NCBI RefSeq assembly: GCF_046105845.1
Contig: NZ_CP151004.1
Reading direction: 5' to 3' (one strand)
Source of the DNA: Escherichia coli
GTDB taxonomy: Bacteria; Pseudomonadota; Gammaproteobacteria; Enterobacterales; Enterobacteriaceae
Length of the DNA: 64,000 nucleotides
Shown: one piece after another, positions 8,904 to 37,709 of the stretch
How the letters are laid out: each line of letters begins with the position of its first letter
Numbering within the stretch: position 1 is the stretch's first letter
The notes under the pieces: model-generated
The model's input: the letters and a program-made list of their open reading frames with translations, nothing else
What the model was told of the DNA's origin: nothing
Databases searched by the model: none
Position numbers and translations under genes: made by a program

Positions 8904-9569
8904 TTAACGCAGGCTTTGCGGCAGCAGTTCATCTACCAGTACATTCAGCCAGTGGTGTAGCCCCCACCAGACGCCCGCCAGTAGCAGCGCCAGTGTTACC
9001 AGCCAGAAAAACGGCGAATGCAGCAAAGGGTGCTGACGGGTGGATAACGGCACGTTCAGTACCGCCGTTTCCGGCAGCACGCCAAATGGCGCGACCTGCC
9101 CGTTGAGCGTCGAAATAAGCTGGTCGCGCTCCGGGGCCACCGGATCCTGATAACGCCCGCGAAATCCCAGCAGCAGGACACGGTGAAAGCAGGTCAGCAC
9201 AGCCTGTGCAGGTGCGGGCTCCTGCAACACCTGCTTCATCCGTTCGTACAGCAGCTCGCCTGCCTGCAGGGTGTTGAAGAAATGCGACTGGAGTGGATCC
9301 TTCATCCAGATGGCCTGACCGTCGTCCATGCCGCCACGGCTCAGGACCGTTTCGTCCAGCAGGGCGCACTGTGCGTAAGTTATGTGCTCCACGCTCTCCC
9401 GGCTGAACCCGGCATCTTTCAGGCGTTCGCGGACCCCTTCCACCTGCCGCTGGCAGTGGCGATACAGCTCCATACCGTGACGCACGGTGGTTCCCTGACG
9501 CAGTTCCACCACCGTCAGAAACGTGTCGCGCAGCAGCGCGTCGATATTGATATCCGTCTCTTTTTTCAT
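8904..9569 (-). CDS. tssL: T6SS membrane-complex protein TssL (DotU family)
   Basis: 221-aa ORF with a DotU-like cytoplasmic domain and a C-terminal transmembrane segment (FFWLVTLALLLAGVWWGL). Start overlaps the tssK stop by 4 bp. Confidence 0.85.
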   Translation of the reverse strand: MKKETDINIDALLRDTFLTVVELRQGTTVRHGMELYRHCQRQVEGVRERLKDAGFSRESVEHITYAQCALLDETVLSRGGMDDGQAIWMKDPLQSHFFNTLQAGELLYERMKQVLQEPAPAQAVLTCFHRVLLLGFRGRYQDPVAPERDQLISTLNGQVAPFGVLPETAVLNVPLSTRQHPLLHSPFFWLVTLALLLAGVWWGLHHWLNVLVDELLPQSLR

Positions 9570-10903
9570 GTGCGCAGCACCGCAAACAGTTCAGGTTTCA
9601 GGTCGCCCATGGTTCCCGGCGCATAAATCATGCAGCACCCGGACTCCAGCATCGATTTGGCCGCGTCACTGTGCATATCCAGCGCAAAATACTGGTTCTC
9701 CAGTCGCAGCGGCAGCGCCGCCGGAACTGAGGTCAGTGGCACCAGTGAAACACCGTTCAGCGCCACATTGATAAGCAGCGTGACGTCATCAGGCGCACCG
9801 ATTTTGCAGACCAGCGGTAGCTGGTGCAGTACCTGATGTGCCGGCAGAGAGGAACGAACGGACAGGTAAAAATCGGCCTCTTCCCGCAGGCGCGGATCGT
9901 GCAGGTCTGCTTTCCAGCGGTTGCCCGGCAGGGACGCCAGCTCCAGTGCGATCACCCGTGACGGCAGGCTGGCTTCCAGCAGTTCGCTGAGCAGGGAGAA
10001 CAGTGGCGGAAAGACGGTGGACGGCGATTCGTGGACATAGGGCGGAACGGCGCTGACGTTATGTTCAAGGGAAAACGTCAGCAGCGCTCCGGCAAGCCTC
10101 GCCAGCTCCCGCCAGACCAGTTCGGGATGAACTGCCGGGTAGCGCAGGAAATCTCTCAGTACCGGCTCAGCAGAATTCAGCGCGTTAAGCAGCCAGAACA
10201 GGGAGACATCGGCGATGGCGAAGTCCGCCATACGCTGGTTGCTTTCCCGGCGCATCGCCATCAGACGCTGACATTTGGCCCGTAGCTGCAACAGCAGCGT
10301 GTCCAGACGCTGTACCAGTCCGTCATGGGCGTTAAACGCCAGTAACGGTGGAATGTAATCGCCGTCCTGCGTCCAGTTGCCCTGAACATCCCGCACCAGA
10401 CGCGCCAGTGGGCAGGTGATGTAATCCTGATTGTTATCATGGACAAAGCGCAGGGACAGCGCATGACGCTCAACGGCCATATCTTCACTGTCACTGCCGT
10501 AGATATCCTGCACCTTTTGCCATTCCTGACGATAGCGTAGCGGTCTTTCAGTCTGCTCACCCTGACCGAGATTACCGCCGTTACCATGGGCAAGCGGCAG
10601 CGCCAGCAGAACAACCGCGCTGTCGTTCGTCAGCGCGTGCAGATCGCAGGCGAGAGGCAGAACATCGCTCACATCTGAATCGATCAGCGTGCCATCAGCA
10701 AAACGCAGGCGTACTGCCTGCGTTTTCAGCTTTCCGGACGTCAGGGCATCGCGGTCAAAGAGCACATTCGCGATCCCCCACGGATGACGAATACAAAGTT
10801 GCGCAATGCTGTCATTGCTGAACGCTTCCCAGCGGGCCTGCTGCTGAAACTGCTGAGAGGACAGGAATGTCCCCTCAGCCCACAGTGGTCGATGAATTTT
10901 CAT
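9566..10903 (-). CDS. tssK: T6SS baseplate protein TssK
   Basis: 445-aa ORF with a typical TssK N-terminus (MKIHRPLWAEGTFLSSQQFQQQ), positioned between tssC and tssL. Confidence 0.85.
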   Translation of the reverse strand: MKIHRPLWAEGTFLSSQQFQQQARWEAFSNDSIAQLCIRHPWGIANVLFDRDALTSGKLKTQAVRLRFADGTLIDSDVSDVLPLACDLHALTNDSAVVLLALPLAHGNGGNLGQGEQTERPLRYRQEWQKVQDIYGSDSEDMAVERHALSLRFVHDNNQDYITCPLARLVRDVQGNWTQDGDYIPPLLAFNAHDGLVQRLDTLLLQLRAKCQRLMAMRRESNQRMADFAIADVSLFWLLNALNSAEPVLRDFLRYPAVHPELVWRELARLAGALLTFSLEHNVSAVPPYVHESPSTVFPPLFSLLSELLEASLPSRVIALELASLPGNRWKADLHDPRLREEADFYLSVRSSLPAHQVLHQLPLVCKIGAPDDVTLLINVALNGVSLVPLTSVPAALPLRLENQYFALDMHSDAAKSMLESGCCMIYAPGTMGDLKPELFAVLRT

Positions 10904-10920
10904 ATCACACCACTTCCCGG

Positions 10921-12459
10921 TCAGGCTTTCGCTTTCGGCATCTGGGAAACCAGTGACAGGTTGATATCCATCCCTTCAATCTGGAAATGCGGCACGGCAA
11001 AGAGTCTGACGCGGAAGAAGCCCGGATTGTCCTCAATATCTTCCACGATAACCTTGCCGTCGCGCAGCGGGTGAGACGCCTGCAGTTCATCACCCGGATC
11101 GGTCATCTCCGTCACCAGTGTGCGGATCCAGGTGTTCAGTTCCAGTTCCAGTACGCGGCGGTCTTTGGTGGTACCGATATTCTCGCGCTGGATGATTTTC
11201 AGGTAATGCGCAATGCGGGACAGCAGGAAGATATAGGGTAAACGGGCGTTAATACGGCTGTTGGCAGTGGCATCAGCGGTATCATACAACGCCGGTTTCT
11301 GGGCAGAGTTTGCCGAGAAGAAGCAGGCGTAATCGCGATTCTTATAATAAGAGAGCGGAATAAAGCCAAGGTTGGCAAATTCAAATTCGCGGGTTTCCGG
11401 GATCATCACTTCGGACGGAATTTTGACCTGATTGCCGGTGCCGAGATCGTAAAGATGGATGGGCAGATCGGTCACTGCGCCACCTGCCTGTGGACCACGG
11501 ATCTGCACACACCAGCCATTATTCACAAAGCTCTTCACCATATTGGCGGCAAAAGCGAACGAGGCGTTTGTCCACAGGTACTTTTCGTGATCCGGACCTT
11601 TGACTTCTTCCACATAGTTAAAGCTGCGTACCGGCACCGTGTCCGGCCCGTACGGCAGACGCCCCAGTACGCGCGGCATCACTAATCCCACATAGCGACT
11701 GTCATCCGTATCGCGGAACGATTTCCATTTAATATATTCTGCGCGGTCAAAGTAGTTGCCGATATCTTTAATCGCGGCGACTTCTTCCATCGAATTTTTA
11801 AGGAAGAATTTCGGCCCGACAGAACCTATAAATGGCATATGGGAAGCGGCAGACACTCTGGAAATATTGCGCAGCAGGGCAATATCCTGCGGGCTGTTAT
11901 CAAATTCATAGCTGGAAATTAATGAGGCAACAGGTTCGCCACCCGGCGTATCGTACTCCTGAATGTATGTATGACGATATAAACCGCTCTGAATGATTTC
12001 CGGGGAGTCGTCGAAATCCTGACGCAGATGCTCTTTGCTGATATCCAGCAATTCAATTCTGACATTTTTGCGAAAATCAGTGCGCTGTACGACGAACCAT
12101 GTGCCGCGCCACAGCGACTCGACTTTCTGGAATTCAGGATGGTGCATTACCGCATCAAGCTGCTTACTGATTTTCTGATCCAAATCGTCGATATGAAAAT
12201 CCAGCAGGCTCTTGTCGAGCTTGACCACGTTCTCGCCTGATTTCGCCAGACAGGAAAGCAGAACGTGAATCGCCGCTGTCACGCGCTCATCGGGTGAGGC
12301 ATCCGCCAGTGTTTCGCTGTTTTGCCATAAATCTATTTCCTGAATGGAAGACACCGGGGTTAAATTAATTTTATCAAACAGGGACTGATAAACGCCGCCG
12401 GACTCAGTGGTGGTCAGTGTTGCAGTTTCAGAGGTGGCATGTTCTTGTTGTACAGACAT
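10921..12459 (-). CDS. tssC: T6SS contractile sheath large subunit TssC (VipB)
   Basis: ORF of 512-514 aa with TssC-like sequence. I place the start at the third Met (12459) because AAGGAA sits 6 nt upstream; the ORF track starts at 12465. Confidence 0.9.
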   Translation of the reverse strand: MSVQQEHATSETATLTTTESGGVYQSLFDKINLTPVSSIQEIDLWQNSETLADASPDERVTAAIHVLLSCLAKSGENVVKLDKSLLDFHIDDLDQKISKQLDAVMHHPEFQKVESLWRGTWFVVQRTDFRKNVRIELLDISKEHLRQDFDDSPEIIQSGLYRHTYIQEYDTPGGEPVASLISSYEFDNSPQDIALLRNISRVSAASHMPFIGSVGPKFFLKNSMEEVAAIKDIGNYFDRAEYIKWKSFRDTDDSRYVGLVMPRVLGRLPYGPDTVPVRSFNYVEEVKGPDHEKYLWTNASFAFAANMVKSFVNNGWCVQIRGPQAGGAVTDLPIHLYDLGTGNQVKIPSEVMIPETREFEFANLGFIPLSYYKNRDYACFFSANSAQKPALYDTADATANSRINARLPYIFLLSRIAHYLKIIQRENIGTTKDRRVLELELNTWIRTLVTEMTDPGDELQASHPLRDGKVIVEDIEDNPGFFRVRLFAVPHFQIEGMDINLSLVSQMPKAKA

Positions 12460-12517
12460 CAGCATTTCCTTTTCAGTGATCCTTTCTTCTCCGGTTTAAC
12501 CTGAATATCACTTCGGG

Positions 12518-13018
12518 TTAAACGTTCTCCTGCGGCGCAATTTTCGCCAGTTCATCACGCAGTTCTGAACTGAGCGTTGGGTCTTTCAGGATATTTTCCA
12601 GTTCACGGCGAAACGTTGCGTTATCCAGCAGATTGGATTTGAGGTCACGTAATAAATTGCGCATAGCGAGTAATACACGAAGCTGTGGGATATTTTTTGC
12701 TACCTGTTCGGGTTCAAAATCTTTCAGGCTTTTAAATTCAAGCGCGATATTTTGTTCATTACCGCTTCCGCTTAGTGTGTCTTCTACTGTTAAATTAACC
12801 GCAGGCGAAAACTCAGCCATGACACTGTTGAAGTTGTTTTTATTGATATCAATCTTGTCCCGTTCGGACAGCGGACGTTGCTCTTTTCCGTTACTGTAAT
12901 CGCCAACAGCAAGAAGCTTGAGGGGGAGTTCAACTTTCTTTTTAGCATTGCCTGTATGCAGGTCAAGCTTGATATTTACACGAGCGGCGGGAACTTCATT
13001 CTGGAAACTGTCGGCCAT
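12518..13018 (-). CDS. tssB: T6SS contractile sheath small subunit TssB (VipA)
   Basis: TssB-like sequence (ARVNIKLDLHTG...ELPLKLLAVGDY). I place the start at the internal Met (MADSFQ) preceded by GAGGAAAAGG; the ORF track extends to 13045, which remains possible. Confidence 0.85.
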   Translation of the reverse strand: MADSFQNEVPAARVNIKLDLHTGNAKKKVELPLKLLAVGDYSNGKEQRPLSERDKIDINKNNFNSVMAEFSPAVNLTVEDTLSGSGNEQNIALEFKSLKDFEPEQVAKNIPQLRVLLAMRNLLRDLKSNLLDNATFRRELENILKDPTLSSELRDELAKIAPQENV

Positions 13019-13045
13019 ATCCTTTTCCTCATCATCCACTTTCAT

Positions 13046-13657
13046 CAGGAGTGCGAGATAATCACGCGTGTGACTATCCCATAAGGATTATGACTATATA
13101 AAGATAAAAAACAAGAACAAATATAGAGACAGAAATATCATTTATAATTGCTGTGAATAATTATACGTCTATCTCGAAATTATATTATTTGAGAACATCA
13201 TCCCATTTTTAGGCGTTTTAGCTGTTAAGCAGACGGTTAAACCTATACATGTGTATACATGCATGAAAATACTGAAAAACAACAAGATCCACATCACAAA
13301 AATTTATTTTTCAGAATGACGGAATTCATGTTTTTTTCGCAAATTATTCACCATGCAAATATTTAATTTTTTTCATGCTTAATAAAATATGATGTTTACT
13401 CATATGCCAACTATGCTACCTGTTGACGCCACACACCAATACACAAAACAAATGCAACAATCACAAACCATAAAAATAAAATATGATTTAGCTATAGTTA
13501 TCAACAAAATAACATCACCACCATTTATAATTTTACTATTGATAAAAAATAGAAACTACGATAAATAATAAAGCATTACTTACCAATCATTCTTTTAAAT
13601 GATTCTGGAATGCAGTCTCCACTGCATAATTGGGCTGTGTTTTTTAAGGAGCAAGTA
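13046..13657. promoter_or_regulatory. 612-bp strongly AT-rich divergent intergenic region upstream of tssB (minus) and an unknown gene (plus); presumed T6SS operon promoter region
   Basis: Unusually long, AT-rich non-coding stretch between divergent genes. One GATC (13286-13289). A GATAATCAC element at 13066-13074 resembles half a Fur box. No promoter hexamers could be assigned with confidence. Confidence 0.5.
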
Positions 13658-14599
13658 ATGCATACCATTCCTTATTATAGCAATAACACCTCTATGCCTG
13701 TCTGGGTTACTGTTAGCGAAGCAACTGATATTATCAATAAGTATACTAACAGCCATATTAAAGATTGTGACTTATGGCGTTATGCACTTTATGGTCACTT
13801 ACCTCTTTCAATTTATTTCCAGTCACAAATAAAGCTTAGAAAAATTTGCCTGAGCGGCGATGAAATCATGCTGGATAACATCGAAGAAAGCATTATTGAG
13901 AAGATAGCTCAGTTAAGTGATACGTGCATATACAATGGGAAAAATAAAATAATAAAGACAGAAGGTGACTATATTTCCCCAGAGCATCATATTATTGATA
14001 CACCATTAATTGGTCATGAATATATTGTATTACAAAGATTACTTGCTCACTCATTAAAAATACCAAAACCTATTACAGGACAGTATAATTCTCATTATGG
14101 TGTTGTCGTCCGTGAAAATGGAATAATTTATCAGGTCTTCGAATCAACTACACTGGAAAACAGAATAACCCAGCGCCTTCGCCATCTTTCAATCCCCGTT
14201 GCAACATACTTTTACGAATCAACAAAATCCCAGGATCTCAAACAGGCAGGAACCCGGTATTTCCCGGTTTATCATTTTCCTGACGATGCCTGGTTCGTTA
14301 TCAAACGCACTGCTCTTGAGCAATTCATAAATACTTTTCTCCCTCCCACTCATAAAAATACCCCTAAAAATGGAACCCGCATTTCTACACCGCTATCACG
14401 ATTTCTCTGGCTAGCGTGTAAGCACAATCATGATATTAGCGCACTGATGGGGCACCCCTACAAACTCCTCTCCGTGTTCGAAGAATGGGCCCGCTCCGAC
14501 GGTATCACTGAACGACTAAATGGAGATACGCTGAAAACCGCACTGGAACGCGGTTCTCCGGTTTTAGCCTACCGTAACTCCGAATTAATGAAATCCTAA
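13658..14599 (+). CDS. hypothetical protein (313 aa), function unknown
   Basis: Long ORF. ATG at 13658 is preceded by AAGGAG at good spacing; the ORF track begins further upstream at 13610. I do not recognise a family. Transcribed divergently from the T6SS operon. Confidence 0.6.
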   Translation: MHTIPYYSNNTSMPVWVTVSEATDIINKYTNSHIKDCDLWRYALYGHLPLSIYFQSQIKLRKICLSGDEIMLDNIEESIIEKIAQLSDTCIYNGKNKIIKTEGDYISPEHHIIDTPLIGHEYIVLQRLLAHSLKIPKPITGQYNSHYGVVVRENGIIYQVFESTTLENRITQRLRHLSIPVATYFYESTKSQDLKQAGTRYFPVYHFPDDAWFVIKRTALEQFINTFLPPTHKNTPKNGTRISTPLSRFLWLACKHNHDISALMGHPYKLLSVFEEWARSDGITERLNGDTLKTALERGSPVLAYRNSELMKS

Positions 14600-14699
14600 C
14601 TTAGAGTCCAGAAATCCTTACTTAGAGGTCTGCTGCTTTCCTTCGGTAGGTCTGATGATGTTGAATTGACTAGCACATCATCAACTACCGGAGGATAAA

Positions 14700-14885
14700 A
14701 TGACGTCACAACGATTTCTGCGGCTGGCACAGGTTATGGATAAAACCGGACTGAAACGCTCACAGGTCTATGCTTATATGAAAACAGGGGATTTCCCAAA
14801 ATCCGTCAAAATTGGCCCGTCCAGCGTAGCATGGCTGGAATCGGAAATTGACGAATGGATCAATACAAAAATAAATAACCGCTAA
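14700..14885 (+). CDS. AlpA-family phage/island transcriptional regulator
   Basis: 61-aa ORF (MTSQRFLRLAQVMDKTGLKRSQVYAYMKTGDFPKSVKIGPSSVAWLESEIDEWI) matching the small AlpA/MerR-like HTH family. GGAGG SD. Confidence 0.8.
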   Translation: MTSQRFLRLAQVMDKTGLKRSQVYAYMKTGDFPKSVKIGPSSVAWLESEIDEWINTKINNR

Positions 14886-14924
14886 TGTAGTATTCTCATT
14901 ATTAGTTTGTTTGAGGTCATTAAT

Positions 14925-15719
14925 ATGAACGATGATCACGGTATTCTTATGCCTGTCGCACTAAATCAGCTACGGGCATTTGATTTAAATCCACGCCTTA
15001 CCAAAAATCCAGAATATGATGAAATTAAAGAATCGATTCGCAACCGCGGGCTGGATTATCCGCCACAAATAACACAACGTCCGGGAGAATCTTTTTATAT
15101 TATTGCCAATGGAGGTAATACCCGGCTGGCAATACTCAACGAGTTATGGCTGGAAACTCACGATAAAAAATACTGGAATATTGTCTGTCATTTCTGGAAG
15201 TGGCATACAGACTGGAGCATTGAAGAAGGTAATTTACACTGCCTGCTTGGTCATCTCGTAGAAAATGATAAACGCGGTTCACTGACATTTATTGAACGGG
15301 CATTAGGGGTTCAAAGTGCAATAAACCTGTATCAAAGTATCCGGGGAAGCTCACAAAGAGATCTGGTACAAATGCTCTGTCAGGCGGGATATCCAGTATC
15401 CACCACGAAACTAAGTATTATGTCCGCGACTATCACATTTCTTTTACCCTATATTCCGGAAGCACTTTACGGTGGTCTGTCGAGACGTATTATCGATAAA
15501 TTGCTGGCACTTCGTTCCAATACGCTAAAATTCTGGGACAACTTCTGCCAGACGTTGCCTCCCGAAAAGGAACAGCAACTCCCTCTATTTGACGATATTT
15601 TTGCTATGGCCCTGACTCCCTTTAATGAACCGATGACAGGTTTTTCACTGGAGCATATTCAGGATGAGCTGACAGGGATTATCAGCAAGACACTTAATGT
15701 GGACTCTGCCCAGCGATAA
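14925..15719 (+). CDS. ParB/sulfiredoxin-like N-terminal domain protein (putative)
   Basis: N-terminal region (LNQLRAFDLNPRLTKNPEYDEIKESIRNRGLDYPPQI...IIANGGNTRLAIL) resembles the ParB N-terminal domain pattern. Start taken at ATG 14925 (GAGG 8 nt upstream); the track ORF starts at 14907. Confidence 0.5.
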   Translation: MNDDHGILMPVALNQLRAFDLNPRLTKNPEYDEIKESIRNRGLDYPPQITQRPGESFYIIANGGNTRLAILNELWLETHDKKYWNIVCHFWKWHTDWSIEEGNLHCLLGHLVENDKRGSLTFIERALGVQSAINLYQSIRGSSQRDLVQMLCQAGYPVSTTKLSIMSATITFLLPYIPEALYGGLSRRIIDKLLALRSNTLKFWDNFCQTLPPEKEQQLPLFDDIFAMALTPFNEPMTGFSLEHIQDELTGIISKTLNVDSAQR

Positions 15720-15916
15720 CGGGATGGCCAGATTTGCGCCGGTGATATATTCAATGCCTCCGCAATCAACCGCTCACCTTTCGGCCAGTGGCTCCTGAGT
15801 GCATTTGCCAGCGTACCGGAGGCCAGCCCGGCTTTGCGGGAAACCGCTGCCAGCGACGTTCCCTGTTTTTTCAGTGCCGCGATAATATCTGCGGGGTGCC
15901 AGTCCTGCTGCATCAT
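15659..15916 (-). CDS. Ner/Nlp-family small DNA-binding protein
   Basis: Sequence from the internal Met (MMQQDWHPADIIAALKKQGTSLAAVSRKAGLASGTLANALRSHWPKGERLIAEALNISPAQIWPSRY) resembles Ner/Nlp (SfsB-like) regulators. ATGA overlap with the integrase stop; GGGAGGG SD. Confidence 0.7.
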   Translation of the reverse strand: MMQQDWHPADIIAALKKQGTSLAAVSRKAGLASGTLANALRSHWPKGERLIAEALNISPAQIWPSRYRWAESTLSVLLIIPVSSS

Positions 15917-17137
15917 ACTGCCCTCCCACAAACCAGCCGTTCGGACGGGATACCACATACACGCTGGCTCCACCACGCCATCACGTCGGTTCTCTGCTCA
16001 AGATAGGTCGAGCGGTTATAAGCGGCGCGCGTCTGATTAGTATCCGCATGAGCCAGTACAGCTTCTATCACATCAGGGGAAAATCCGGCCTCATTCAGCG
16101 TGGTGCTACCCAGCGCCCGGAAACCATGTGACACCAGCTCCCCGCAATACCCCATACGCCGTAGTGCCTTATTGACCGTTTCGCTATTCATTGGTTGCGA
16201 GGGCTTAACCCGACCCGGAAACAGGAACGGCGAGTGTCCACTTATCGGTTTAAGTTGCTCCAGTATCCACAGCATTTCATCAGTCAGGGGCACCAGATGC
16301 TCACGGCGTTTTTTCATACGCTCAGCCGGAATAGTCCATAGCTTTTTCTCCGTATCAATCTCACGCCACATGGTGCCTGACGCTTCTCCGGGGCGCACCA
16401 GCGTCAGCAACTGCCACTTAATCAGATAACGAGTCATCAGCGATAGATTGGTGGTTTCAATCCGCTGTACCAGCTCCGGCAGGCGTTCCGGGCGGATAGA
16501 CGCCATATGCTGTTTTTTCGGCTTCTCAAAGACCTTACCGATGGTCGAGGCTGGATTCGCATCAAGCAGGCCGGAATTGACAGCAAATACCATCACTTCG
16601 TTGATACGCTGGGTTAGACGACGCAGGGTTTCCAGCGCACCTCGTGCCCGGACCGGCTCAAGGGCGGCAATCAGAGTATGTGCTTTCAATTCAGCTACCG
16701 GCATCTGTCCGATTGACGGAAGAACATCCCGTTCCATCGAACGCCAGATATCATCTGCATGCACTTCTGAAATGCCACTGGTCTTTTTAATAGCAAACCA
16801 TCTTGTCGCCACATTGATAAACAGGCTGTCGATTGCTTTCTTTTCCTGTTCTGCGGCTTCCTGCTCCAGCTTTTTCGGATCTACACCCTGAGCCAGCAGA
16901 CCAAGATATTCATCATGTACTGCGGGCAGCAGCAAGAGTTACAGCAGGATAATAACCCAGCGTGATATTGGTACGGGCAGTGGAGTTTGGACGCTGGTAA
17001 CGAAAACGCCAGATTTTCTTCCCGGAAGTACGAACAGAAAGCGTCAGACCATGCCCGTCAGGCAGGTCGTAATCTTTATCGGCGGGTTTTGCTTTTTGTA
17101 CTGCGGCAGCAGTCAGCAGGCGGCGGGTAATGGTCAT
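15913..17137 (-). pseudogene. int: P4-type tyrosine integrase interrupted by a frameshift (N-terminal 74-aa ORF plus 340-aa C-terminal ORF in another frame)
   Basis: ORF 16913-17137 encodes a typical P4-integrase N-terminus (AVQKAKPADKDYDLPDGHGLTL...GYYPAVTLAAAR). ORF 15913-16935 encodes the rest, including the catalytic region (HGFRALGSTTL...LAHADTNQT...Y). The frames overlap at 16913-16935 next to a GGG run (16924-16926). Could also be a homopolymer sequencing error. Confidence 0.75.
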
Positions 17138-17398: not shown

Positions 17399-17475
17399 TG
17401 GCGGAACGGACGGGACTCGAACCCGCGACCCCCTGCGTGACAGGCAGGTATTCTAACCGACTGAACTACCGCTCC
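17399..17475 (-). tRNA. aspV: tRNA-Asp (GUC)
   Basis: Reverse complement matches E. coli tRNA-Asp (GGAGCGGTAGTTCAGTCGGTTAGAATACCTGCCTGTCACGCAGGGGGTCGCGGGTTCGAGTCCCGTCCGTTCCGCCA). Position next to dnaQ identifies it as aspV. Confidence 0.97.
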
Positions 17476-35990: not shown

Positions 35991-37709
35991 ATGCGTACTA
36001 GCCAATACCTGCTCTCCACTCTCAAGGAGACACCTGCCGACGCCGAGGTGATCAGCCATCAGCTGATGCTGCGCGCCGGGATGATCCGCAAGCTGGCCTC
36101 CGGGTTATATACCTGGCTGCCGACCGGCGTGCGCGTTCTGAAAAAAGTCGAAAACATCGTGCGTGAAGAGATGAACAACGCCGGTGCGATCGAGGTGTCG
36201 ATGCCGGTGGTTCAGCCAGCCGATTTGTGGCAAGAGAGTGGTCGTTGGGAACAGTACGGTCCGGAACTGCTGCGTTTTGTTGACCGTGGCGAGCGTCCGT
36301 TCGTACTCGGCCCAACTCATGAAGAAGTTATTACAGACCTGATTCGTAACGAGCTGAGCTCTTACAAACAGCTGCCGCTGAACTTCTATCAGATCCAGAC
36401 CAAGTTCCGCGACGAAGTGCGTCCGCGTTTCGGCGTCATGCGTTCCCGCGAATTCCTGATGAAAGATGCTTACTCTTTCCATACTTCTCAGGAATCCTTA
36501 CAGGAAACCTACGATGCAATGTATGCGGCCTACAGCAAAATCTTCAGCCGCATGGGGCTGGATTTCCGCGCCGTACAGGCCGACACTGGTTCTATCGGCG
36601 GCAGCGCCTCTCATGAATTCCAGGTGCTGGCGCAGAGCGGTGAAGACGATGTGGTCTTCTCCGACACCTCTGACTATGCAGCGAACATTGAGCTGGCAGA
36701 AGCTATCGCGCCGAAAGAACCGCGCGCTGCTGCTACCCAGGAAATGACGCTGGTTGATACGCCGAACGCGAAGACCATCGCGGAACTGGTTGAACAGTTC
36801 AATCTGCCGATTGAGAAAACGGTTAAGACTCTGCTGGTTAAAGCGGTTGAAGGCAGTAGCTTCCCGCTGGTTGCGCTGCTGGTGCGCGGTGATCACGAGC
36901 TGAACGAAGTTAAAGCAGAAAAACTGCCGCAGGTTGCAAGCCCGCTGACTTTCGCGACCGAAGAAGAAATTCGTGCCGTGGTTAAAGCCGGTCCGGGTTC
37001 ACTGGGTCCGGTAAACATGCCGATTCCGGTGGTGATTGACCGTACCGTTGCGGCGATGAGTGATTTCGCTGCTGGTGCTAACATCGATGGTAAACACTAC
37101 TTCGGTATCAACTGGGATCGCGATGTCGCTACCCCGGAAATTGCTGATATCCGCAACGTGGTGGCTGGCGATCCAAGCCCGGATGGCCAGGGTACGCTGC
37201 TGATCAAACGTGGTATCGAAGTCGGTCACATCTTCCAGCTGGGTACCAAGTACTCCGAAGCACTGAAAGCCTCCGTTCAGGGTGAAGATGGCCGTAATCA
37301 AATCCTGACGATGGGTTGCTACGGTATCGGGGTAACGCGCGTTGTGGCTGCGGCAATTGAGCAGAACTATGACGAACGCGGCATCGTATGGCCTGACGCT
37401 ATCGCGCCGTTCCAGGTGGCGATTCTGCCGATGAACATGCACAAATCCTTCCGCGTACAGGAGCTGGCCGAGAAACTGTACAGCGAACTGCGTGCACAAG
37501 GTATCGAAGTGCTGCTGGATGACCGCAAAGAGCGTCCGGGCGTGATGTTTGCTGATATGGAACTGATCGGTATTCCGCACACTATTGTGCTGGGCGACCG
37601 TAACCTCGACAACGACGATATCGAATATAAATATCGTCGCAACGGCGAGAAACAGTTAATTAAGACTGGTGACATCGTCGAATATCTGGTGAAACAGATT
37701 AAAGGCTGA
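35991..37709 (+). CDS. proS: proline--tRNA ligase
   Basis: 572-aa product from [20 protein letters not shown]. The track ORF is extended 18 codons upstream. Confidence 0.96.

What the first reader, a model, noticed from the sequence alone, without database searches (positions are those of the whole stretch)
13046..13657. Only weak candidate regulatory motifs in the long AT-rich T6SS promoter region (one GATC, one Fur-box-like half site)
From published work on an E. coli T6SS-1 promoter I recall regulation by Fur together with Dam methylation at GATC sites. Here I find only a single GATC (13286-13289) and a GATAATCAC element (13066-13074) close to the tssB start. This may mean a different regulatory logic, or simply that the motifs are too degenerate to see by eye.
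Basis: partly seen in the sequence, partly recalled or inferred. Interest (0 to 1): 0.3.

Follow-up and report, generated by a model that had tools for sequence, protein, structure and literature searches.

The report
Mosaic AT-rich T6SS promoter, no Fur-Dam switch
The 639-bp AT-rich gap upstream of this E. coli type VI secretion operon is a patchwork control region unrelated to the one known Fur/Dam-switched T6SS promoter, and its lone GATC and "Fur-like" element are no more than chance would give, so the finding is ordinary.

Summary
There is one GATC (13286-13289), about what base composition predicts (1.3-1.6). GATAATCAC exists, but at 13057-13065, not 13066-13074. The real tssB start is 13018, so the gap is 13019-13657 (639 bp, 29.9% GC), the lowest-GC stretch of the window.

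A Fur matrix built here from 15 classic E. coli Fur promoters scores 7.9 bits at best. Shuffles reach that 82% of the time, and natural AT-rich DNA gives about 2.5 such sites per kb. The validated EAEC fur1 box scores only 5.8 bits, so weak Fur binding cannot be excluded.

This region shows no detectable homology to the EAEC sci1 Fur/Dam promoter. It also differs from the common metV-linked version of the same T6SS, except for the 24-nt leader and one distal island.

It is a mosaic of three parts:
- a variable spacer holding the GATC, which is not conserved;
- the end of a decayed integrative element carrying the divergent gene's promoter.

The most likely control is a weak sigma-70 promoter under H-NS-type silencing, not a Fur-Dam switch. 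Interest is low.

The parts
12518..13018 (-). tssB (T6SS sheath small subunit), 166 aa; true start ATG at 13018
   Evidence: Pfam T6SS_VipA, E = 2.8e-51. The same start is annotated or called in relatives. The N-terminus aligns with EAEC TssB.
13019..13042 (-). 24-nt translation-initiation leader (AAAGTGGATGATGAGGAAAAGGAT before the ATG), GGA-rich with the Shine-Dalgarno sequence; the only proximal segment shared by all variants of this T6SS
   Evidence: 100% identical in the metV-type cluster and 87.5% in Salmonella. In the other 1337 matching E. coli genomes, as far as the listed hits show, the megablast match ends at 13042.
13055..13080 (-).
   Evidence: As RNA it forms an 11-bp stem of -14.7 kcal/mol, z = -5.6. 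It is 17/20 identical in Salmonella. 93% of cells pair, with four one-sided wobble-compatible changes and no double compensatory change.
13080..13098 (-). Best Fur-consensus-like 19-mer (TATAGTCATAATCCTTATG), overlapping both candidate -10 hexamers
   Evidence: 14/19 to the consensus, shuffle P = 0.12. 7.9 bits with the empirical matrix, shuffle P = 0.82. Conserved in E. coli and Entomohabitans orthologues but not in Salmonella. It contains no GATC.
13087..13098 (-). Candidate -10 hexamers: CATAAT (13087-13092) and TATAGT (13093-13098)
   Evidence: The TTGTTC-16-TATAGT pair is the second-best sigma-70 score on the tssB strand at 9.9, which is not above shuffles. CATAAT aligns with Salmonella GATAGT at the same 16-nt spacing from a conserved CTTG.
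13109..13120 (-). Candidate -35 hexamers: TTGTTT (13109-13114) and TTGTTC (13115-13120)
   Evidence: CTTG is invariant across E. coli, Entomohabitans and Salmonella in alignments A1 and A2.
13119..13142 (-). Conserved upstream block AATGATATTTCTGTCTCTATATTT (-124 to -101); a possible activator, UP-like or nucleoid-protein site, function unknown
   Evidence: 21/24 identical to the Salmonella orthologue (blastn E = 3e-4). Identical in L024 and L031.
13019..13155 (-). Near-invariant tssB-proximal core of the aspV-type promoter
   Evidence: About 99-100% identical to L024, L031 and MEW, while tssB itself is 97.0-97.6% identical and the distal intergenic DNA falls to roughly 70-85% (estimated from the alignments).
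13261..13316 (-). Distal island also present (74% identity) upstream of the metV-type cluster; it contains the single GATC
   Evidence: blastn of window -298..-243 against metV -270..-216, E = 3e-4; alignment A5.
13286..13289 (.). The only GATC; specific to this lineage
   Evidence: The site is GGTC in L024, and TATC in both L031 and the metV-type. It is absent at this position in Salmonella.
13338..13353 (-). Sigma-54-like GG-N10-GC match (TGGTGAATAATTTGCG); rejected
   Evidence: 7/11 to the consensus. Both the GG and TTGC elements are lost in L024 and L031.
13445..13657 (+). Segment that travels with the divergent gene (end of an integrative-element remnant); it includes the motif CTATTGATAA...ACGATAAATAAT (13536-13574), the inverted repeat TGCAG-N6-CTGCA (13611-13626) and the Shine-Dalgarno sequence (13646-13651)
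   Evidence: Conserved upstream of orf313 homologues whose left-hand neighbour is tssB, vgrG, yafT or hha. 75% identical to Salmonella over 13539-13657.
13658..14599 (+). Divergent 313-aa conserved hypothetical gene, first gene of an orf-AlpA-ParB(ICE PFGI-1 type)-... module

Best explanation
The region 13019-13657 is the divergent control region between a horizontally acquired T6SS operon and the terminal gene of a decayed integrative element at tRNA-Asp (aspV). The T6SS is of the PAI-metV type, with gene order tssB-tssC-tssK-tssL-tagL-hcp-clpV-vgrG. The region is a mosaic.

(1) A tssB-proximal core (13019-13155) contains:
- a weak sigma-70-type promoter: -35 TTGTTT/TTGTTC at 13109-13120 and -10 CATAAT/TATAGT at 13087-13098;
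- a predicted transcription start near 13080-13086;
- a conserved palindrome at the 5' end of the leader (13055-13080);
- a GGA-rich ribosome-binding leader (13019-13042).

(2) A fast-evolving AT-rich spacer (about 13156-13444) contains a distal island shared with the metV-type cluster and the lone, non-conserved GATC.

(3) An element-end segment (about 13445-13657) carries the promoter and operator-like motifs of the divergent gene.

Proposed mechanism:
- Transcription of the sheath operon starts from the weak core promoter.
- That promoter is kept low by H-NS-type binding to this extremely AT-rich tract.
- The conserved upstream block and the palindrome act as sites for a still unknown counter-silencer or for a post-transcriptional effect.
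- It is not a Fur-Dam epigenetic switch of the EAEC sci1 kind.

Shown: anatomy, mosaic homology, absence of a GATC cluster, absence of a Fur site above chance.
Inferred: the promoter assignment, H-NS silencing, the role of the palindrome.
For: Composition:
- The region has the lowest GC of the window, and 10.2 TpA steps per 100 nt against 4.4 for the window.

Distribution and homology:
- The intergenic sequence occurs in only 2 of 5426 complete E. coli genomes. The tssB-containing 901-nt query matches 1339.
- The metV-type upstream region shares only -24..-1 and the -298..-243 island.
- There is no similarity to the EAEC sci1 promoter.

Conservation of the core:
- It is about 99-100% identical in L024, L031 and MEW.
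- Its blocks are recognisable in Salmonella: the -124..-101 block, CTTG-16-nt-(C/G)ATA(A/G)T, and the palindrome at 17/20.

GATC:
- The count equals expectation and the site is not conserved.

Fur scan:
- Leave-one-out scores of classic sites run 7.6-21.1 bits, median 13.0.
- The best score here is 7.9 bits, shuffle P = 0.82, with about 1.6 such sites expected in 639 bp of natural AT-rich DNA.

Literature:
- H-NS silencing of horizontally acquired T6SS clusters is described in the abstracts of PMC10899749 and PMC9023278.
- Dam-site depletion in silenced, protein-occupied regions is noted in the abstract of PMC12369378.
Against: - No promoter-like site on either strand scores above dinucleotide shuffles. 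The promoter assignment therefore rests on conservation across few, mostly very close sequences.
- H-NS binding is inferred from composition only. The one match to the TCGATAAATT nucleation motif is 8/10, and its density equals that of the whole window.
- Near-identity of the core could reflect a recent recombination block rather than selection: 1 difference observed against about 4 expected at the tssB divergence.
- The hairpin has no double compensatory change. In the longer Salmonella leader a competing fold is predicted.
- My Fur matrix fails to flag the validated EAEC fur1 box (5.8 bits), so it has little power against weak Fur sites.
Confidence: 0.5

Rival explanations
1. Fur still represses this promoter directly, without Dam. 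The 19-mer TATAGTCATAATCCTTATG (13080-13098) would be a weak Fur box covering the -10, as fur1 does in EAEC sci1, so that iron limitation de-represses the T6SS.
For: - The site matches the consensus at 14/19 and scores 7.9 bits. The validated EAEC fur1 box matches at 13/19 and scores 5.8 bits.
- It lies at -80..-62 from the ATG, against -86..-68 for fur1, and it overlaps the candidate -10 hexamers.
- It is fully conserved in MEW, L024 and L031.
- GATAAT-like hexamers cluster at 13057-13098.
Against: - The score is not above chance: shuffle P = 0.12 for consensus matching and 0.82 for the matrix. About 1.6 such sites are expected in AT-rich DNA of this length.
- It sits at the bottom edge of classic Fur sites, whose leave-one-out scores are at least 10 bits in 13 of 15 cases.
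- The Salmonella orthologue has no Fur-like site at this position.
- The promoter is not homologous to sci1.
Confidence: 0.2
2. The region has no dedicated regulatory sites. It would be a neutral junction left by insertion of an integrative element next to a T6SS island. The operon is then either read from a constitutive weak promoter or is simply silent, and the palindrome and conserved blocks persist only because the sequences diverged recently.
For: - All motif scans are at chance level.
- The close relatives differ by only 1-3% in the flanking genes.
- The integrase is frameshifted and parB is truncated, so the neighbouring element is decaying.
Against: - The palindrome (17/20), the -124..-101 block (21/24) and the -35/-10 spacing survive in a Salmonella orthologue. 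Its tssB is only 79% identical and the rest of its upstream DNA is unalignable.
- The core is somewhat better conserved than the tssB coding sequence.
Confidence: 0.2
3. A sigma-54 promoter (TGGTGAATAATTTGCG, 13338-13353, minus strand) drives the operon, as in VasH-controlled T6SS clusters of Vibrio and Aeromonas.
For: It has the correct GG-N10-GC spacing and matches the consensus at 7 of 11 specified positions.
Against: - Both elements are lost in the orthologues L024 (TTG...TTCA) and L031.
- It would leave a leader of about 300 nt.
- No enhancer-binding protein gene appears among the cluster genes annotated in the relatives.
Confidence: 0.03

Closest known systems
EAEC sci1 T6SS promoter, the Fur-Dam epigenetic switch (Brunet et al. 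2011, PMC3145626; Taillefer et al. 2026, PMC13262931)
   Same: - It lies upstream of tssB in a cluster with the same gene order (tssB-tssC-tssK-tssL-tagL-hcp-clpV-vgrG).
- The intergenic region is AT-rich and several hundred bp long.
- A Fur-consensus-like 19-mer overlaps the candidate -10 at a similar distance from the ATG.
   Different: - There is no sequence homology, and TssB is only 66% identical.
- EAEC has three GATC sites at -129, -97 and -80, one of them inside fur1. This region has a single non-conserved GATC at -271 and none in the Fur-like site.
- The EAEC cluster sits on the pheU island. This one sits at aspV, next to an integrative-element remnant.
Upstream region of the common metV-linked E. 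coli T6SS (PAI-metV type; Blondel et al. 2009, PMC2907695; called T6SS-2 in later E. coli nomenclature, from memory)
   Same: - The structural genes are nearly identical: tssB 99.2% and tssC 98.1% nucleotide identity.
- The 24-nt leader is identical, and a distal island is 74% identical.
- Length (632 bp) and GC content (31%) are similar, with one GATC and no Fur site above chance.
   Different: - About 200 nt between the leader and the distal island (window -242..-25) are non-homologous. This is a promoter-cassette difference.
- The metV type lies next to the tRNA-Met genes and is the form seen in the strain I inspected (2011C-4251). The tssB-containing query matches 1339 of 5426 complete genomes, but only 2 carry this window's intergenic region.
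Salmonella enterica T6SS joined to the same integrative-element end (L027/L028, GCA_005462655.1; probably SPI-20-like, which Blondel 2009 places near aspV)
   Same: - It has the same arrangement, tssB divergent from the orf308-AlpA-ParB module.
- Shared elements are the -124..-101 block, the -35/-10 architecture, the palindrome, the leader and the orf-proximal 120 nt.
   Different: - tssB is only 79% identical, and most of the spacer is unalignable.
- It has one GATC, at -103, inside the -35/-10 spacer.
- It has an 11-nt insertion downstream of the palindrome, and its hairpin is weaker at -7.2 kcal/mol.
H-NS-silenced horizontally acquired secretion-system promoters (general class; abstracts of PMC10899749 and PMC9023278; SPI-6 T6SS silencing recalled from memory)
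   Same: - The region is about 20 percentage points lower in GC than its flanks, rich in TpA steps and A/T tracts, and lies on a tRNA-linked island.
   Different: - No binding data exist for this locus.
- Only one 8/10 match to the proposed high-affinity motif is present.

Membership tests
sci1-type Fur-Dam switch promoter | Sequence homology to the EAEC sci1 promoter | tested here: not met
   A blastn 'distant' search of 5426 E. coli genomes, which include strain 042, returned only two near-identical records. Direct pairwise blastn found nothing.
sci1-type Fur-Dam switch promoter | A cluster of GATC sites around the -35/-10 (three within 53 nt in EAEC) | tested here: not met
   There is one GATC in 639 bp, at -271, which equals the composition-based expectation. 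It is not conserved in the orthologues.
sci1-type Fur-Dam switch promoter | A GATC inside the Fur box that overlaps the -10 (GATC-I within fur1) | tested here: not met
   The Fur-like 19-mer TATAGTCATAATCCTTATG (13080-13098) contains no GATC.
sci1-type Fur-Dam switch promoter | Fur box(es) at the core promoter | tested here: inconclusive
   The best site is 14/19 and 7.9 bits and overlaps the candidate -10, but it is not above chance. The validated fur1 box scores lower (5.8 bits), so the scan lacks power.
sci1-type Fur-Dam switch promoter | Iron-, Fur- and Dam-dependent expression with ON/OFF heterogeneity | not testable with these tools
   This needs reporter fusions in fur and dam mutants and methylation assays.
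Classic Fur regulon promoter | A Fur site scoring in the range of known sites | tested here: not met
   Leave-one-out best-site scores of 15 classic promoters run 7.6-21.1 bits (median 13.0; 13 of 15 reach 10 bits or more). The maximum here is 7.9 bits, with shuffle P = 0.82.
Sigma-70 promoter | -35 and -10 hexamers with 16-18 nt spacing, stronger than background | tested here: inconclusive
   TTGTTC-16-TATAGT scores 9.9, and the TTGTTT-16-CATAAT pair was identified by eye from the alignments. Shuffled maxima average 11.9, and the consensus scan found none on this strand. The architecture is conserved with Salmonella.
Sigma-54 (VasH-type) T6SS promoter | A conserved GG-N10-GC element with TGGCAC/TTGCW context | tested here: not met
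   The single 7/11 match at 13338-13353 is not conserved in L024 or L031.
H-NS-silenced xenogeneic promoter | An AT-rich tract well below genome GC, on horizontally acquired DNA | tested here: met
   GC is 29.9% against roughly 45-60% in the flanks. It is the lowest-GC stretch of the window and lies on an aspV island with an integrase.
H-NS-silenced xenogeneic promoter | H-NS occupancy and de-repression in an hns mutant | not testable with these tools
   No binding or expression data are available here.
Known RNA family in the leader | A match to an Rfam covariance model | tested here: not met
   No match with E <= 1 in 12800-13900 on either strand.

The most novel reading that the evidence does not exclude
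T6SS clusters of this family may carry interchangeable promoter cassettes of about 200 bp, set between a conserved ribosome-binding leader and a conserved distal island.
- On this reading, the window carries the cassette shared with a Salmonella orthologue, with the palindrome-bearing leader and no Fur/Dam logic.
- The common metV-linked E. coli clusters carry a second, unrelated cassette.
- EAEC, Enterobacter and Citrobacter carry a GATC-cluster cassette.
- Near-identical secretion machines would thus be rewired by cassette exchange.
- Here the cassette abuts an integrative-element gene with a weakly winged-HTH-like N-terminus, which might couple T6SS expression to the element.
Probability: 0.3. 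Interest if true: 0.4.

Novelty: new variant of a known kind. Interest (0 to 1): 0.2.

Why it matters
- The Fur-Dam switch described for EAEC sci1 should not be transferred by annotation to other E. coli T6SS clusters of the same gene order. Here the structural genes are 98-99% identical to the common metV-linked cluster, yet the roughly 200 nt that should hold the promoter differ, and neither version resembles sci1.
- If cassette exchange is real, strains with near-identical T6SS weapons could deploy them under quite different conditions. That matters for predicting interbacterial competition from genomes.
- As a stand-alone feature, the region is an ordinary AT-rich island promoter with chance-level motifs.

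Tried and rejected
**Fur matrix sources**
- I looked for published Fur site sequences to build a matrix. Chen 2007 (PMC2189734) has no supplements held, and the pan-regulon paper (PMC10164565) does not mention T6SS in its text or supplements.
- I therefore built the matrix from 15 MG1655 promoters.

**Motif and RNA scans**
- Rfam scan of 12800-13900: nothing.
- Sigma-54 candidate at 13338-13353: not conserved.
- IHF, CRP, Lrp-like and ATAG-N7-CTAT patterns: no matches.
- H-NS motif TCGATAAATT: one 8/10 match, at the same density as the whole window.

**Element boundary**
- I searched the intergenic region and the window for a tRNA-Asp 3'-end repeat that would mark an element boundary. No exact match longer than 8 nt turned up in the intergenic region.

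**Small ORFs**
- The ORFs at 13389-13568 (59 aa, plus strand) and 13169-13297 (42 aa, minus strand) are not conserved in L024 or L027, so they are spurious.

**Searches for more orthologues**
- A metagenome scan with AATGATATTNNTGTCTCTAT gave 53 hits, none resembling the core by blastn, so presumably chance matches.
- A genome-contig scan with TssB gave 80 loci, but only Entomohabitans teleogrylli shares this promoter.

**Other tests**
- Hairpin covariation showed only one-sided changes, which is not decisive.
- Global-alignment identity of the proximal 140 nt is uninformative in AT-rich DNA (108, 101 and 95 identical positions), so I did not use it.

Full report
**What is at the coordinates**

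The window carries a T6SS operon on the minus strand.
- tssB is at 12518-13018, tssC at 10921-12465 and tssK at 9566-10903 (Pfam hits).
- In a 99%-identical relative these are followed by tssL, an OmpA-family (tagL-like) gene, hcp, tssH and vgrG.
- On the other side lies a divergent 313-aa gene (ATG 13658, Shine-Dalgarno 13646-13651). Then come AlpA, a truncated ParB of the ICE PFGI-1 type, an HTH_35 gene, a frameshifted P4-type integrase and tRNA-Asp at 17399-17475.
- Core genes beyond the tRNA are 98-99% identical to E. coli. The host is therefore E. coli, with the T6SS sitting at aspV next to a decayed integrative element.

The real start is very probably 13018.
- It is the start annotated or called in all relatives examined.
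- MADSFQNE aligns with EAEC MSSSFQNE.
- The upstream ATG is missing in the metV-type and Salmonella versions.

The intergenic region is therefore 13019-13657, 639 bp at 29.9% GC. It is the lowest-GC stretch of the whole window, with 10.2 TpA steps per 100 nt against 4.4 overall.

**Checking the observation**

- There is exactly one GATC, at 13286-13289.
- Composition predicts 1.3-1.6, so the count is neither enriched nor depleted.
- GATAATCAC exists, but at 13057-13065, which is 9 nt from the stated position.

**Is there a Fur site?**

The published consensus is GATAATGATAATCATTATC. In EAEC sci1, fur1 matches 13/19 and fur2 11/19 (PMC3145626).

*Consensus matching.* The best site here is 14/19, TATAGTCATAATCCTTATG at 13080-13098 on the minus strand. 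P(max >= 14) in dinucleotide shuffles is 0.12.

*Empirical matrix.* No site list was available from the papers held. I therefore fetched 15 classic Fur-controlled MG1655 promoter regions: fepA-fes, fepD-entS, fepB-entC, fhuA, fur, fiu, tonB, cirA, exbB, fecI, fecA, fhuF, ryhB, feoA and fhuE. From them I refined a symmetric 19-bp matrix.
- The matrix recovered the textbook consensus, with 14.1 bits of information.
- Leave-one-out best-site scores of those promoters are 7.6-21.1 bits, median 13.0, and 13 of 15 reach 10 bits.
- The window's best score is 7.9 bits at the same 13080-13098 site. Shuffles reach this 82% of the time.
- Natural DNA below 35% GC gives 2.5 such sites per kb, or about 1.6 expected here.

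So there is no Fur site above chance.

*An important caveat.* The experimentally validated EAEC fur1 box scores only 5.8 bits, and the whole sci1 promoter peaks at 7.8 bits (P = 0.48). The scan cannot detect that class of weak site. The 7.9-bit site here overlaps the candidate -10 much as fur1 does, at -80..-62 against -86..-68. Weak Fur repression therefore remains possible. Against it, the Salmonella orthologue has no Fur-like site at that position.

**Is it the sci1 kind of promoter?**

No.
- I retrieved sci1 from E. coli 042 (L003). It shows TATAATGATCA (GATC-I inside fur1) plus two more GATC sites, at -129, -97 and -80.
- The window region has no detectable similarity to it.
- The two TssB proteins are 66% identical.

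**Homology structure**

Only 2 of 5426 complete E. coli genomes carry this intergenic sequence: MEW from an ivory gull, and an O158:H23 strain. The tssB-containing 901-nt query matches 1339 genomes. In the others, to judge from the listed hits, the match stops at 13042, 24 nt upstream of the ATG. In the one I inspected the cluster sits next to the tRNA-Met (metV) genes with a different 632-bp upstream region.

That metV-type cluster is 99.2% identical in tssB and 98.1% in tssC. Upstream, it shares only the 24-nt leader and a 57-nt island, window -298..-243 against metV -270..-216 at 74% identity. About 200 nt in between, where the core promoter should be, are non-homologous.

More diverged orthologues of the window's version came from exact-protein and protein-pattern look-ups:

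| Orthologue | Similarity to the window's intergenic region |
|---|---|
| E. coli metagenome contig L024 | 88% over the whole region |
| Entomohabitans teleogrylli L031 | 83% over the proximal 306 nt |
| Salmonella enterica L027/L028 | tssB 79% identical; conserved blocks only |

Alignments A1 and A2 show the following.
- 13019-13155 is about 99-100% identical among the E. coli and Entomohabitans versions. tssB itself is 97.0-97.6% identical, and the distal DNA drops to 70-85%.
- Salmonella retains the block AATGATATT..TGTCTCTAT.TTT (13119-13142; 21/24, E = 3e-4).
- Salmonella also retains an invariant CTTG, a 16-nt spacer and then (C/G)ATA(A/G)T.
- Salmonella retains the palindrome at 17/20 and the leader.

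The segment from about 13445 to 13657 is conserved upstream of orf313 homologues whatever their left-hand neighbour is: tssB, vgrG, yafT or hha. It therefore belongs to the integrative element.

The GATC lies in the shared distal island but is specific to this lineage. The site is GGTC in L024, and TATC in both L031 and the metV type.

**Promoter and leader**

- A sigma-70 matrix ranks TTGTTC-16-TATAGT (-10 at 13093-13098) second on the tssB strand. Nothing exceeds shuffles.
- The pair conserved with Salmonella is TTGTTT (13109-13114)-16-CATAAT (13087-13092).
- Either choice predicts a start near 13080-13086 and a leader of 62-68 nt. That leader would begin with the palindrome GGGATAGTCAC-ACGC-GTGATTATCTC (13055-13080).
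- As RNA the palindrome is an 11-bp hairpin of -14.7 kcal/mol, z = -5.6 locally.
- Across four distinct sequences, 93% of cells pair. Four substitutions are all one-sided and wobble-compatible in the tssB sense, with no double compensatory change.
- The Salmonella hairpin is weaker, and a competing fold is predicted in its longer leader.
- RNA hairpin and DNA operator therefore cannot be told apart here.

**Other scans**

- Rfam: nothing.
- One sigma-54-like match at 13338-13353, not conserved.
- No IHF, CRP or Lrp-like pattern matches.
- One 8/10 match to the H-NS nucleation motif, at background density.
- Small ORFs in the gap are not conserved.

**Interpretation**

The best-supported picture is a mosaic, horizontally acquired control region.
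- It has a weak sigma-70 core promoter conserved within this promoter type.
- Extreme AT-richness makes H-NS-type silencing the default expectation. That is an inference from composition and from general knowledge that such T6SS islands are H-NS targets (abstracts).
- It has two conserved elements of unknown function: the upstream block and the palindrome.
- It does not have the Fur-Dam switch architecture.

I put this at about 0.5, Fur-only repression at about 0.2, 'no dedicated regulation' at about 0.2, and sigma-54 at 0.03.

**Novelty and verdict**

- The kind of thing, an AT-rich island promoter of a T6SS operon, is well known.
- This particular cassette is uncharacterised. It differs from both the sci1 promoter and the common metV-linked promoter, so I rate it a new variant of a known kind.
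- The finding as written, weak motifs only, is correct and ordinary.
The experimental half remains open.
- Interest: 0.2.

Noticed in passing
[not shown]
   Followed up: partly
L036, L037, L052, L053, L056, L060, L062, L095, L098 (about 200 nt upstream of tssB); alignment A4: Nine of 80 TssB-relative loci have three or more GATC sites just upstream of tssB. They come from Enterobacter, Citrobacter, Lelliottia and Pluralibacter. Eight were aligned (A4). Most share a conserved cassette (AAAATTCTTAAG...GATCT..GATCTG...GTTGATCT...TTGTTCTAnTATG), though two of them (C. sedlakii, Enterobacter genomosp. O) lack the first GATC at that position. A GATC-cluster promoter type like EAEC sci1 seems wider than EAEC.
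   Followed up: partly
window 13261-13316 versus L002 6335-6389: A 57-nt island is 74% identical between this promoter and the otherwise unrelated metV-type upstream region. It is also present in L024 and L031. It could be a retained distal regulatory element or just a remnant of common ancestry.
   Followed up: partly
window 15913-17137 (-) and 14907-15719 (+): The P4-type integrase next to tRNA-Asp is split by a frameshift into 340 and 74 aa, against 408 aa intact in L017 and L024. The ParB-like gene is 264-270 aa, against about 480 aa in the Salmonella elements. The integrative element here is a decayed remnant.
   Followed up: partly
window 14081-14099 and 37617-37635: The two best Fur-matrix hits of the whole 64-kb window are CAGTATAATTCTCATTATG (13.2 bits), inside the orf313 coding region, and GATATCGAATATAAATATC (13.3 bits). 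Both lie outside the region under study.
   Followed up: no
window 13536-13574 and 13611-13626: Two conserved elements lie upstream of orf313. One is the motif CTATTGATAA...ACGATAAATAAT, present in every genomic context of the family. The other is the inverted repeat TGCAG-N6-CTGCA in the leader. They are likely the element's own promoter and operator.
   Followed up: partly
window 12501-14700: Only two GATC sites occur in this 2.2-kb stretch (13286 and 14234), against 4.1 per kb for the window as a whole. The tssB coding sequence has none.
   Followed up: no
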